Made by a program: the position numbers and the translations under genes. 64,000 nt of DNA from NCBI RefSeq assembly GCF_009914755.1, contig NC_060925.1, one strand, 5' to 3'. Below, piece after piece: positions 34,151 to 36,621 of the stretch. Position 1 is the first letter of the stretch, and each line of letters starts with the position of its first letter. Below the pieces are notes generated by a model. That model did no database searches and had not been told where the DNA came from. It saw only the letters and a list, made by a program, of their open reading frames with translations. Source of the DNA: the human T2T-CHM13v2.0 reference genome, Homo sapiens.

Positions 34151-34216
34151 CCACTGATGGACTGTAACTAATTCATGGTCTTCTACCTCTGCTAGGTCCA
34201 GACTGATAATGAATAT

Positions 34217-34694
34217 TGACAGAGACTTTCCCCTTGACCTAACTATAACTAGTCAGGCTCTTCTGAACCCAACTAGAGCCCATTCTTGGGAATGTCCACA
34301 AGAGTCCAGTTTTAGCAAGAATCCTGTTAAATCAGTTTAGACAGAATCCTCCACCCTTAATATCTGATCACCTTCAGTATCTGACCAAATTCTTCCTCTC
34401 TCACCATCTCCCAGGTAATATGGGATCACTGTGGCCTGTCTTCAGTAAGAATCTTGTTAGGTCAGCTTATCAAGAATTATCTTACCCTTGCAGTAGTTTT
34501 TAAACTACTGACCCTCCACATTCTTCTTCTTGGCTATAAATTTCCTCTTTTCTTTGTTGCATTAGGAATTGAGCTCCATCTCTCTCCCCACTACAAAAAT
34601 CCCATTGCAGCAGTCCCTACACTTTTCAAGGTAGCCCTGAATAACACCTATCTTACCAGTTTAACAAGTGTTAGTGTATTCTTTTGCTTTAATA
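34217..34694 (+). mobile_element. MER31-type ERV1 solo LTR
   Basis: tgacagagactttccccttgacc...tagtcaggctc...agttttagcaagaatcctg...ggctataaatt...ctttaata. Confidence 0.75.
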
Positions 34695-34817
34695 GTATCA
34701 AATGATTGTTTATGGCTTATTCCTGAGTATCCAAGATTAAATCTTTGCCTTTCTGTCTTACCTGTTGATTCAGACCCTGAATGATCAGGAAGATCCTGAC
34801 TGCTTAAGACTAGGCTT

Positions 34818-35031
34818 TGGTGAAACCCCATCTCTACTAAAAACACAAAAAATTAGTCGGGTGTGGCGGTGGGCTCCTGTAGTCCCAGCTACTCGGGAGG
34901 CTGAGGCAGGAGAATGGTGTGAACCTGGGAGGCAGAGCTTGCAGGGAACTGAGATGGTGCCACTGCACTCTAGCCTGGACGACAGAGTGAGACTCTGCCT
35001 CAAAAAAAAAAAAAAAAAAAAAAAAAAAAAA
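34818..35031 (+). mobile_element. 5'-truncated AluY-like SINE
   Basis: tggtgaaaccccatctctactaaaa...gagaatggtgtgaacc...A30 tail; degenerate TSD aagactaggctt / aggactatgctt. Confidence 0.88.
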
Positions 35032-36621
35032 GGACTATGCTTATTTGTGCTTTTATGTGCTTTTATCTCCAGATTTCAATGGACTGAAATCAAGGTTGAA
35101 TGGTCTATTGTTTTTCAGACTATACACAGCTGTATCAGCACTTCCATAGCTGCCATGTTTACAACTATAACCTGATCCTTGCACCATTACTATCACTCTG
35201 TATATGATTAGACCCAAATTCACCTTGGGTTTGACTTGTCTGGCTTCTGAGTGTGTTATCTATCTCCTGCTTGATTATGACTATGACTTGCTTGTCACTG
35301 GAGGGAACTTCCTCTGTCCATTGTTTTACTGATCATCACTTCTCATGACTAGACCCAAACTGTCCATGAATTTATATCTGGCTAGGAAAAGACATGGATT
35401 GTCTAGAGCTGTCTCATATCTATTCATGGGCCATCTATCTGCCTTTTTCTAGTGTTGGATCCTGATTGTTCATATATAGATTCAGACTAACCATTAGTGG
35501 ATGTTTGTCTGTGATAAGACCGAGCGTTTAGAGTTTATAGAAATATCTCTTATCAACCAACTGTCCATGGGCTGATTCTATCTCTGTGTCTCCAGATTGT
35601 ATTTTATGGCCACTGACCTAATTGTAACTTCATCCTTGAAGTCTGCTTATTTTGGGTCCAGAATATATTAATAGTGCTCATCTGTGAATTGACCCTGAAG
35701 GTCTAGTGCTGCCTTTTGATTGTCTGTAGTGAACCAATTTCTTTTCCTTATGTTGAACACAGATTCTTCTTGGAAGACTAGATTGCCTATGAGTAGATGT
35801 CCATCCTTGATGAGTTTCTGGCTTACCTTTTGACTGTCCATGGCTAGAACTATCTCTTTTTTTTTTTTCTGGATCCAGACTGCCCATGCCTATATACAAC
35901 TTGACCACAGGAGAAGGGTAACTGTCTATCCCAGCCTCCTAACTATGCTTCATTACTGGAAAGAGTAAATTTAGATCTCTGCTGTTTATGCTGGATGTAG
36001 ACTGTACAGGTGATGATTATCTATGAAAAGATCATGAATGTCCAGAGCTCTCTCCTTATTGACTGTAGCTGGATCCATGTCTTCTTATATTGGGTCCAGA
36101 TTTTCCATGTGTAGACCCAGACTGTCCATAAATCGATGTCTGTCCTGAGCATCTAATGCTATCTTATGATTATCTGTGGTGAGAGCCTTGTTTTCCTATT
36201 TTATCAGATTTCTGTTGTTTGTGGCCATACCCAGGCTATTCATGGGTTCATGCTGACTGTCTGAGTTTTCTGATTGTCTTTCAATATCATTAGATTGACT
36301 ATACCTGGGCACCTTGGTCCATTTGTACTGATTCCAGACTCTGTAGGTGATGATTGGTTATGAGATGACTTGGCACTCTCTCCTGACTGTCCATTGAATT
36401 CATGCAAACTGTCAATGACTGGTTATTTGGCCCTGCTGAGATACTGACTATCTGGAGCTTCTTCCTGTTTGACCATGACTAGGGTTTTGTTTTCCTCTTT
36501 TGCTGGATCGGTATTGCCTATGACCATATTTAGACTGGTCATGGGTAGATACTGACTGTTCTTTTGAATCTCTTGATTGTCCCTCACTGTCACTGGACTA
36601 ACTATAGTTAGAACTCCTGGC

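What the first reader, a model, noticed from the sequence alone, without database searches (positions are those of the whole stretch)
34152..36620. Fossil of an additional filaggrin/filaggrin-2-like gene upstream of HRNR
Seen: ~1.7 kb of non-transposon minus-strand DNA translating, through stops and frameshifts, to Ser/Gly/His/Gln/Arg-rich sequence. A YSQSSDSEGQS-type landmark recurs at ~36606, 36303, 35969, 35626 and ~35310, giving its own ~300-345-bp period, distinct from the 117/1410-bp periods of HRNR. Established: SDSEGHSEDSDTQSVSAH and VSTHEQSESAHG are filaggrin repeat motifs, and (R/K)HGSYG(S/P)A(D/E) lies in the FLG and FLG2 C-terminal regions; KHGSYGSAD occurs here at 35160-35134. Inference: the remains of an extra SFTP gene, co-oriented with HRNR and in addition to the seven known human members. 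MER31 and old L1 insertions into the exon imply ancient loss, so an intact orthologue may survive in other mammals. I know of no annotation for it but cannot check.
Basis: partly seen in the sequence, partly recalled or inferred. Interest (0 to 1): 0.85.

Follow-up and report, generated by a model that had tools for sequence, protein, structure and literature searches.

The report
Dead filaggrin-like gene beside hornerin
Between the human hornerin and filaggrin genes lies the decayed wreck of one more filaggrin-type skin-barrier gene, with its promoter, first exon, repeat array and tail still recognisable, which helps to reconstruct how this disease-relevant gene cluster evolved.

Summary
On the minus strand, 36612-35180 holds four and a half decayed tandem units of 303-343 bp. 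DNA profiles of filaggrin (FLG) repeats and of FLG2 B-repeats hit them at E 2e-9 to 8.5e-3. They hit nothing else in 47 kb of the window below E 0.5, apart from one 91-bp piece at 33430-33520. The conserved C-terminal motif follows at 35176-35134. Once an Alu and an old interspersed repeat are cut out, a tail collinear with the FLG2 3' end follows. New here: 2.1 kb upstream, 39659-38718 is homologous to the FLG promoter, exon 1 and start of intron 1 (62.6% over 807 bp, E 1e-49). It keeps the TATA box, a TGAATCA site and the GT splice donor. No S100 exon is detectable. In FLG's frame the repeats carry 17 stops and 15 frameshifts in 290 codons. It is an ancient, unprocessed FLG-type pseudogene, not a recent FLG copy. 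It is absent from the RefSeq table supplied, and eight literature searches found no description. GENCODE and other mammals could not be checked. Interest is moderate.

The parts
38986..39659 (-). Promoter relic, homologous to about FLG -712 to -1. It has a TGAATCA (AP-1-like) site at 39065-39059 and a TATA box (TATAAAAG) at 39011-39004.
   Evidence: blastn 39481-38718 against FLG -495..+271: 62.6% over 807 columns, E 1.4e-49. 39659-39584 against FLG -712..-636: 70.5% of 78. A genome-wide DNA search of 38650-39700 finds only itself and the FLG 5' end (2 of 2 candidates). Motifs were read from the MAFFT alignment of five promoters and from the sequence.
38933..38985 (-). Relic of non-coding exon 1, about 53 nt, ending in ...GGTGAACTGG, with the GT donor (GTAAGA) at 38932-38927.
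   Evidence: It aligns column for column with exon 1 and the donor of FLG, HRNR and FLG2. FLG2 gene positions 40-117 also hit 38944-38873. The start is set by alignment to the annotated FLG gene start and is approximate.
38718..38932 (-). Start of intron 1, still alignable with FLG intron 1 (to FLG +271).
   Evidence: Part of the 807-column HSP.
36636..38717 (-). Gap with no detectable homology to any SFTP gene part. It is mostly unique DNA plus an Alu at 37157-37471. Exon 2 and the S100 part of exon 3 would be expected here.
   Evidence: tblastn of exon-2 and exon-3 N-terminal peptides of four SFTP genes gave nothing below E 0.18 in window 17001-64000. N-terminal 420 residues against the gap: best E 0.22. 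Local DNA alignment against exon 2 and the exon-3 5' ends: highest z 3.0 in 16 tests. Genome-wide searches show unique DNA apart from about 100 nt of an old repeat.
35180..36612 (-). Decayed filaggrin-type repeat array: U1 36612-36310, U2 36309-35976, U3 35975-35633, U4 35632-35317, then a partial U5.
   Evidence: Self-blastn E 5e-21 and the unit alignment. nhmmer with an FLG-unit profile: 6 hits, E 3.4e-9 to 2.6e-6. With an FLG2 B-repeat profile: 5 hits, E 1.9e-9 to 8.5e-3. The reciprocal profile of the relic's units hits FLG 41 times (best 1e-25) and FLG2 18 times (best 3.5e-17), and hits HRNR, RPTN and reversed controls 0 times. In FLG's frame there are 17 stops and 15 frameshifting gaps in 290 codons.
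35134..35176 (-). Conserved C-terminal motif region (KHGSYGSAD at 35160-35134), broken by a 1-nt deletion just after it.
   Evidence: 86.4% of 44 nt to FLG exon-3 nt 12756-12798, and 74.6% of 63 nt to FLG2 nt 6892-6953. Both lie just before the respective C-termini. Three-way alignment.
34104..35133 (-). Tail and 3'UTR-equivalent in three pieces (35133-35032, 34818-34697, 34210-34104), split by two transposon insertions.
   Evidence: With the two insertions cut out, the 338 nt align collinearly with the FLG2 tail (relic 114-275 to FLG2 107-274, counted from the motif): 66.2% of 160 nt, score 36 against shuffles 11.9 +/- 1.7, with 0 of 300 shuffles reaching it. The uncut control scores 12. There is no similarity to the FLG (z 0.6), HRNR (z 2.0) or RPTN (z -0.4) tails.
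34819..35031 (+). 5'-truncated Alu with a 30-nt A tail, inserted in the tail. Target-site duplication AAGCATAGTC / AAGCCTAGTC.
   Evidence: Alu similarity, A run 35002-35031, junctions.
34211..34696 (-).
   Evidence: Genome-wide search: 807 first-look candidates, 40 scored, and all 40 match (self plus 39 copies at 70-75% identity) over query 136-625. The alignment to FLG2 runs straight across the excision point with a 4-nt gap.
33430..33520 (+). A 91-bp filaggrin-repeat-like piece in the opposite orientation, sitting inside the L1 that bounds the relic.
   Evidence: nhmmer with the FLG-unit profile: E 5.2e-11, 79.5% of 78 nt. In at least 10 other genomic copies of this L1 family the flanks (query 330 and 422) abut directly, and none of the 73 non-self rows covers the insert. 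It also matches the relic itself (75% of 68 nt, z 7.8).

Best explanation
Window 34104-39659, minus strand (T2T chr1:151,376,104-151,381,659), is the relic of one whole, tandemly duplicated, filaggrin-type SFTP gene. It is an unprocessed pseudogene lying between FLG (upstream) and HRNR (downstream) and in their orientation.

Shown:
- It keeps, in canonical order on one strand, an FLG-like TATA promoter with a TGAATCA site, a non-coding exon 1 with its GT donor, and the start of intron 1.
- After 2.1 kb of unalignable DNA come four and a half filaggrin / FLG2-B-type repeat units, the conserved C-terminal motif, and an FLG2-like tail and 3'UTR.
- The repeats cannot be translated: every frame has 24-32 stops per 477 codons.
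- The S100 exons are not detectable.

Inferred:
- The gene arose by duplication of an FLG-type ancestor before or around the radiation of placental mammals. Promoter distance to FLG is 0.49 substitutions per site, against 0.61 for FLG-HRNR.
- It lost function, lost exon 2 and the 5' part of exon 3 by deletion or decay, and then took up an old interspersed repeat, an L1 and two Alus.
- It makes no protein today. Whether the well-kept core promoter still fires was not tested.
For: 1. Repeat homology at the DNA level, corrected for composition bias. The FLG-unit profile gives 7 hits at E 5e-11 to 2.6e-6 in window 17001-64000: 6 inside 35349-36604 (minus strand) and 1 at 33442-33519 (plus strand). 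The next best hit is E 1.4. The FLG2-B profile gives 5 hits at E 1.9e-9 to 8.5e-3, all inside the relic, with the next best at E 0.5.

2. Controls. The FLG profile finds nothing below E 3.9 in the reversed window, HRNR exon 3, RPTN exon 3 or 55 kb of neighbouring intergenic DNA. The reciprocal relic profile hits only FLG (41 hits) and FLG2 (18 hits), on the coding strand.

3. Collinearity. Repeats are followed by the C-motif (86% of 44 nt to FLG) and then the tail (z 14.4 to FLG2 once the transposons are cut out).

4. The 5' end. There is an 807-column alignment to the FLG promoter, exon 1 and intron 1 (E 1.4e-49). That stretch is unique in the genome apart from FLG. TATA, TGAATCA and the donor are in register with FLG, HRNR and FLG2.

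5. One age throughout: 62.6-64.4% identity for the promoter, 64.2% for the repeats over 901 nt, and 66.2% for the tail.

6. No other exon-3-like relic lies in the rest of the HRNR-FLG interval or in the FLG-FLG2 interval (1 chance-level HSP in 55 kb).

7. It is not a repeat family. A genome-wide search of 35050-36640 finds itself and two FLG repeats only (3 of 3 candidates).
Against: - No S100/EF-hand remnant was found by any of three tests. The family's defining domain is therefore absent, and 'whole gene' is inferred from the two ends.
- Protein-level evidence is weak. Pfam Filaggrin (PF03516) gives no hit in 23 open stretches or in three X-read-through frames, whereas an FLG unit scores E 1e-34. 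blastx with composition-based statistics reaches only E 1e-3 against a database of four ORFs. A genome-wide protein search with the best ORF does not reach FLG.
- The promoter tree puts the relic next to FLG with only moderate support (SH-aLRT 83.3, UFBoot 67), and the AU test rejects none of five alternatives (p 0.08-0.35).
- The tail resembles FLG2 and not FLG, so 'FLG duplicate' is too simple.
- The 2.1-kb gap could mean that the two ends were brought together by rearrangement.
- Ages are rough and assume a clock.
Confidence: 0.85

Rival explanations
1. Two unrelated fragments rather than one gene: a partial duplicate of the FLG 5' flank and a separate partial duplicate of an FLG/FLG2-type 3' end, lying 2.1 kb apart by chance or by rearrangement.
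For: Nothing alignable joins them. No exon 2, S100 part or intron homology lies in 36636-38717. The 5' piece is closest to FLG, while the tail is like FLG2 and unlike FLG. The inverted 91-bp piece inside the L1 shows that small local rearrangements did happen here.
Against: Both pieces are on the same strand, in the right order, and at a spacing like intron 1 + exon 2 + intron 2 of FLG2 or HRNR (exon 3 starts 2.3 kb into FLG2). They show the same level of divergence, 63-66%. They are the only SFTP-like DNA in the 79-kb HRNR-FLG interval.
Confidence: 0.08
2. A recent, or merely primate-specific, partial copy of FLG that has decayed quickly. It would not be an old independent family member.
For: FLG is the only other genomic hit for both ends. 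The best short segments reach 77-86% identity to FLG.
Against: Overall identity is 59-67% over hundreds of bases. The relic's tail is not FLG's tail (z 0.6) but FLG2's (z 14.4). Its unit length (303-343 bp) is not FLG's 972 bp. An interspersed repeat whose copies are only 70-75% alike lies inside it. The branch from the FLG-relic node to the relic is 0.28 substitutions per site.
Confidence: 0.04
3. Chance resemblance of low-complexity, purine-rich DNA to Ser/Gly/His-rich coding repeats. There would be no homology.
For: The protein-level statistics are marginal after composition correction.
Against: Profile hits are confined to one strand and one 1.5-kb stretch, with clean reversed and HRNR controls. 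The non-repetitive motif, tail and promoter are also homologous.
Confidence: 0.01

Closest known systems
FLG (profilaggrin), 59 kb upstream in the same orientation
   Same: - Promoter, exon 1 and the start of intron 1 align over 807 columns, with TATA, TGAATCA and the GT donor in register.
- Repeat segments correspond to FLG-unit positions about 640-972 and 1-240.
- The C-motif is 86% identical over 44 nt.
- FLG is the nearest neighbour in the promoter tree.
   Different: - Relic units are 303-343 bp, not 972 bp, and lack FLG-unit positions about 240-640.
- The tail after the motif is unrelated to FLG's 157-residue C-terminal domain (z 0.6).
- There are no S100 exons and no open frame.
- Overall identity is only about 63%.
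FLG2 (filaggrin-2), B-type repeats and 3' end
   Same: - The B-repeat profile hits the relic 5 times, with a best score of 32.1 bits. It scores 42.4 bits against FLG and 11.9 against HRNR.
- The tail and 3'UTR are collinear at nearly identical offsets from the motif, 66% over 160 nt.
- Wu et al. 2009 (PMC2668185, passages read) describe the B repeats as filaggrin-like.
   Different: - FLG2 units are 225-231 bp.
- The FLG2 promoter is the most distant of the three in the tree.
- FLG2 also has HRNR-like A repeats, of which the relic shows no trace (0 HRNR hits).
Human TCHHL2 remnant (Strasser et al. 2015, PMC4437054, passages read)
   Same: A precedent for a mutated SFTP gene remnant in the human genome beyond the seven intact genes.
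   Different: It belongs to a different subfamily (trichohyalin-like). I did not see its sequence or position (supplementary figure not seen). The relic here is filaggrin-type and lies between HRNR and FLG.
Opossum HRNR-like 1-3 genes between FLG and HRNR (PMC10791643, passages read)
   Same: Extra SFTP genes in the very interval where the human relic lies.
   Different: They are described as hornerin-like, whereas the relic shows no HRNR-type repeats. Orthology could not be tested because no marsupial sequence was available to the tools.

Membership tests
S100 fused-type protein (SFTP) gene family | N-terminal S100 domain (two EF-hands) encoded by exon 2 and the start of exon 3 | tested here: not met
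   tblastn of exon-2 and exon-3 N-terminal peptides of FLG, FLG2, HRNR and RPTN against window 17001-64000: best E 0.18. Against the gap 36500-38800: best E 0.22. DNA local alignments: highest z 3.0 in 16 tests. The domain is either deleted or decayed beyond detection.
S100 fused-type protein (SFTP) gene family | Non-coding exon 1 with a TATA promoter shared among the paralogues | tested here: met
   An 807-column alignment to FLG -495..+271, E 1.4e-49. TATA, TGAATCA and the GT donor are in register with FLG, HRNR and FLG2. The stretch is unique in the genome except for FLG.
S100 fused-type protein (SFTP) gene family | Long last exon made of tandem repeats of biased composition | tested here: met
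   Four and a half units of 303-343 bp, homologous to FLG and FLG2-B repeats by nhmmer in both directions.
S100 fused-type protein (SFTP) gene family | Conserved C-terminal motif after the repeats. The consensus is SPLY(D/E)Y(V/L)QEQ(K/R) (PMC4437054). In FLG and FLG2 it reads HGSYG(S/P)A(D/E)YDYG. | tested here: met
   35176-35134 is 86% identical to FLG and 75% to FLG2 at the equivalent place. A 1-nt deletion breaks the Y-D-Y part.
S100 fused-type protein (SFTP) gene family | Position in the SFTP cluster of the epidermal differentiation complex, co-oriented with its neighbours | tested here: met
   Minus strand, between HRNR (window -6357..16814) and FLG (95741..119789), both on the minus strand. 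Source: the hub's gene table, with coordinates confirmed.
S100 fused-type protein (SFTP) gene family | Intact coding capacity (a live gene) | tested here: not met
   24, 32 and 30 stops per 477 codons in the three frames, with a longest open run of 86 codons. In FLG's frame there are 17 stops and 15 frameshifting gaps per 290 codons.
Pfam Filaggrin repeat (PF03516) | A match to the 56-column protein profile at its gathering score | tested here: not met
   0 hits at E<=10 for 23 open stretches, 2 X-read-through pieces and all 3 X-read-through frames. The positive control, one FLG unit, scores E 1e-34 over 5 stretches.
Processed (retrotransposed) pseudogene | No promoter or intron sequence, a poly(A) tail at the 3' end, and a location away from the parent gene | tested here: not met
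   Promoter and intron-1 sequence are kept. The relic lies within the parent cluster. The only A runs belong to an Alu and an L1.

The most novel reading that the evidence does not exclude
The relic is the placental remnant of an ancient therian filaggrin-type paralogue that occupied the FLG-HRNR interval, the interval where the opossum still has extra SFTP genes. Because it combines an FLG-like promoter with an FLG2-like tail, it represents the lineage that gave FLG2 its B-repeat-plus-tail module, or is sister to that lineage. FLG2 would then be a recombinant of an HRNR-type gene and this type of gene. An intact orthologue with its S100 head may survive in some mammals.
Probability: 0.2. Interest if true: 0.65.

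Novelty: new member of a known kind. Interest (0 to 1): 0.5.

Why it matters
FLG is the strongest known genetic risk locus for atopic dermatitis and ichthyosis vulgaris, and its surroundings have been studied closely. Current accounts nevertheless list seven human SFTP genes and describe the same gene arrangement in human, cattle and elephant (PMC11039687, PMC10791643, passages read).

A further filaggrin-type gene relic gives a fixed, non-homogenised outgroup for the FLG/FLG2/HRNR subfamily, whose live members erase their own history by concerted evolution. It has its own repeat length, an FLG-like promoter and an FLG2-like tail. Three consequences follow:
- The FLG2-type tail appears to be old, and the FLG tail derived.
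- The subfamily went through birth and death in placentals, as it did in marsupials.
- The relic gives comparative genomicists a precise place to look for a live orthologue.

There is also a practical use. A well-preserved TATA/AP-1-type promoter inside an intron of the lncRNA CCDST, 57 kb from FLG, is a candidate regulatory element to check in keratinocyte data.

Tried and rejected
- **Pfam on open stretches and X-read-through frames.** No hit. This is uninformative for a relic this decayed; the FLG control worked.
- **The search for homologous proteins with the best ORF, longer proteins.** 5 candidates, none scored. That search covered only proteins of 87-2000 residues, and FLG, FLG2 and HRNR are longer.
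- **Genome-wide protein search with the 49-residue ORF.** It found only itself and the neighbouring unit at E 1.26.
- **blastx with composition-based statistics.** Best E 1e-3, with 2 HSPs left after SEG filtering. Too weak to carry the claim alone.
- **Tandem Repeats Finder.** Blind to the 300-340 bp period.
- **Search for S100 exons.** In the window, in the gap, and in the rest of the HRNR-FLG interval: nothing.
- **A possible EF-hand helix at 36702-36643 (YLLLFFLYIYTFFHR).** E 0.22-1.4 in T-rich DNA. Rejected as chance.
- **Promoter phylogeny.** It favours FLG + relic but cannot reject alternatives.
- **Assigning relic units to sub-units of the FLG repeat.** Abandoned, because the FLG unit is itself internally repetitive at several offsets (about 126, 231, 364, 414 and 645 nt).
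- **First attempt at the FLG tail comparison.** It used a wrong offset. It was redone.
- **Naming the repeat families (MER31, L1 and Alu subfamilies).** Not possible without a repeat library.
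Full report
**What is there.** The window is human T2T chr1:151,342,001-151,406,000 (hub note, confirmed). Read on the minus strand, 36,620-35,130 translates through many stops and frame changes into Ser/Gly/His/Gln/Arg-rich sequence. The best open stretch is 49 codons (36,597-36,451).

Self-comparison shows a tandem period. 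36,606-35,982 aligns with 36,303-35,643 at 58.3% over 676 columns, E 5e-21. Cutting at the landmarks gives units of 303, 334, 343 and 316 bp plus a partial fifth, and U1-U4 are 50-64% alike pairwise. Tandem Repeats Finder does not detect this period. HRNR's own periods here are 1410, 708, 351 and 39 bp.

**Is it filaggrin-like beyond composition?** The whole assembly proved searchable. I fetched FLG, FLG2, RPTN and the rest of HRNR from it and took their exon-3 open frames of 4344, 2356, 739 and 6813 codons.

- *Sensitive blastn.* Window 17,001-64,000 against those four exon-3 sequences gave 136 HSPs at E<0.01. Of these, 105 fall in 35,134-36,635 on the minus strand (83 to FLG, 22 to FLG2, none to HRNR or RPTN), 30 fall in 33,442-33,517 on the plus strand, and one is elsewhere.
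- *nhmmer, which corrects for biased composition.* A profile of seven FLG units gave seven hits at E 5e-11 to 2.6e-6: six in 35,349-36,604 (minus) and one at 33,442-33,519 (plus). The next best was E 1.4. A profile of nine FLG2 B-repeats gave five hits at E 1.9e-9 to 8.5e-3, all in the relic, with the next best at E 0.5.
- *Controls.* The FLG profile finds nothing below E 3.9 in the reversed window, in HRNR or RPTN exon 3, or in 55 kb of neighbouring intergenic DNA. A profile of the relic's own units hits FLG 41 times (best 1e-25) and FLG2 18 times (best 3.5e-17), on the coding strand only. It never hits HRNR, RPTN or reversed FLG/FLG2.
- *Scale.* The FLG profile scores 45.8 bits on FLG2. The FLG2-B profile scores 42.4 on FLG, 32.1 on the relic and 11.9 on HRNR.

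Protein-level tests are weak. blastx with composition-based statistics reaches E 1e-3. Pfam Filaggrin gives nothing for the relic, while one FLG unit scores E 1e-34. A genome-wide protein search with the best ORF does not reach FLG. That weakness probably explains why protein-based pseudogene pipelines would miss it (inference).

**The 3' end.** 35,176-35,134 (KHGSYGSAD at 35,160-35,134) matches the place just before the C-terminus of FLG (86.4% of 44 nt) and of FLG2 (74.6% of 63 nt). This overlaps the conserved carboxy-terminal SFTP motif described by Strasser et al. (PMC4437054, passages read). A 1-nt deletion breaks it.

Downstream lie two insertions:
- a 5'-truncated Alu at 34,819-35,031, with target-site duplication AAGCATAGTC / AAGCCTAGTC;
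- an old interspersed repeat at 34,211-34,696, with 807 first-look candidates genome-wide, of which 40 were scored and all matched at 70-75% identity.

When both are cut out, the 338 nt after the motif align collinearly with the FLG2 tail and 3'UTR at almost the same offsets. The alignment is 66.2% of 160 nt, with a local score of 36 against 11.9 +/- 1.7 for shuffles (0 of 300 reach it). It runs straight across the excision point, and the uncut control scores 12. There is no similarity to the tails of FLG (z 0.6), HRNR (z 2.0) or RPTN (z -0.4). The FLG and FLG2 tails are not alike either (z -0.3). An L1 begins at about 34,103.

39,481-38,718 on the minus strand aligns with FLG from -495 to +271 (promoter, exon 1, start of intron 1) at 62.6% over 807 columns, E 1.4e-49. 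39,659-39,584 aligns with FLG -712..-636. A genome-wide search of this kilobase finds only itself and the FLG 5' end, so it is not a transposon.

In a five-way alignment the relic keeps the following in register with FLG, HRNR and FLG2:
- a TGAATCA site at 39,065-39,059, identical to FLG's;
- a TATA box at 39,011-39,004;
- an exon 1 ending in GGTGAACTGG;
- the GTAAGA donor at 38,932.

Core identities are FLG-relic 64.4%, FLG-HRNR 58.7%, relic-HRNR 56.1%, and about 51% to FLG2. The maximum-likelihood tree is (((FLG, relic) 83.3/67, HRNR) 71/66, FLG2, RPTN), with branch lengths of 0.22 and 0.28 to FLG and the relic. An AU test rejects none of five alternatives (p 0.08-0.35).

**What is missing.** Between 38,717 and 36,636 nothing aligns with any SFTP gene. 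There is no exon 2, no second EF-hand and no spacer. The DNA is unique apart from an Alu and about 100 nt of an old repeat. The rest of the HRNR-FLG interval and the FLG-FLG2 interval hold no further exon-3-like relic.

**State of decay.** In FLG's reading frame the six aligned stretches (901 nt, 64.2% identity) contain 290 complete codons with 17 stops and 15 frameshifting gaps. The three frames of 36,612-35,180 have 24, 32 and 30 stops per 477 codons.

**Reading.** A promoter, exon 1, repeats, C-motif and tail lie in canonical order on one strand within 5.6 kb. They show one level of divergence (63-66%), and they are the only such DNA in a 79-kb interval. Together these are best explained by one dead, unprocessed, filaggrin-type SFTP gene. 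It is not a recent FLG copy: identity is low, the unit length differs, the tail is FLG2-like, and an old repeat lies inside it.

The FLG-relic promoter distance is 0.49 substitutions per site. It is 0.61 for FLG-HRNR, and the copies of the inserted old repeat are only 70-75% alike. I infer that the duplication predates or accompanies the placental radiation. This assumes a rough clock and is not a measurement.

The mixture of an FLG-like promoter and an FLG2-like tail suggests one of two things. Either the FLG2-type tail is ancestral for the filaggrin group, or FLG2's 3' module and the relic share a lineage. I could not discriminate between them.

**Literature.** Eight full-text searches found no description of this relic.
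- Romero et al. 2017 (PMC5225520, passages) state that they found no filaggrin pseudogene with repeats in NCBI Gene.
- The Eckhart group's papers (PMC11039687, section 8 and passages; PMC10791643, passages) list seven human SFTP genes and a conserved arrangement in human, cattle and elephant. They place three extra HRNR-like genes between FLG and HRNR in the opossum.
- Strasser et al. 2015 (PMC4437054, passages) report a human TCHHL2 remnant, which is a precedent.
- Wu et al. 2009 (PMC2668185, passages) describe FLG2's filaggrin-like B repeats.

I did not open the supplements of these papers. GENCODE and other mammalian genomes were not available. About 1.7 million PubMed Central articles and most subscription-journal papers are outside the search.

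**Verdict.** The relic is a new member of a known kind (an SFTP pseudogene). It is of moderate interest for the evolution of the filaggrin cluster, and it provides a candidate regulatory element near FLG.

Noticed in passing
window 33430-33520 (+), inside the L1 at about 33100-34103 (-): A 91-bp filaggrin-repeat-like piece (reads QSESTHGHV*SSTGENQGSCHGQSRH; 79.5% of 78 nt to the FLG unit, E 5e-11) sits in inverted orientation inside an L1. In at least 10 other genomic copies of that L1 family the two flanks abut directly. It looks like a small templated or filler insertion, copied from the relic or from FLG when they were less diverged. The mechanism is unexplained.
   Followed up: partly
outside the window: L015:9281-9323 (minus), window-equivalent about 139,070-139,112, in the FLG-FLG2 interval: The start of exon 3 of FLG, FLG2 and HRNR all hit the same 37-44 nt here (75-81% identity, E 0.002-0.006). 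The translation reads QNPDDADNMGVVSATL. A weaker RKLKFTECLLTMFQ lies about 900 bp away in the wrong order. This may be a second SFTP relic, this time of the S100 part. The evidence is weak.
   Followed up: partly
window 1-16814 (-) plus L008: In this assembly HRNR exon 3 is open for 6813 codons. That is far longer than the spliced RefSeq model LOC124905679, whose three 'introns' of 708, 2118 and 2118 bp lie inside the repeat array. The first equals the 708-bp repeat period and the other two are three times about 706 bp. The model looks like a shorter reference mRNA forced onto a longer allele rather than real splicing.
   Followed up: partly
window 17620-17749 (-): A homologue of FLG2 exon 1 (66% of 134 nt, E 3e-9) lies about 0.9 kb upstream of the HRNR start codon (16814). 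It is outside the RefSeq hornerin model given for this assembly, which therefore seems to lack the non-coding exon 1.
   Followed up: no
L003-L005 (FLG gene, outside the window): This FLG allele has an exon-3 open frame of 4344 codons. 'FLYQVSTH' occurs 9 times and seven consecutive full units of 324-325 residues were cut out. I take this to be a long-repeat allele. The repeat number was not counted against the reference.
   Followed up: no
window 32289-32684: A 397-bp stretch is 92.9% identical to DNA near the FLG 3' flank (the subject offset in that call was wrong, so the exact place is not known). This is probably a young shared transposon.
   Followed up: no
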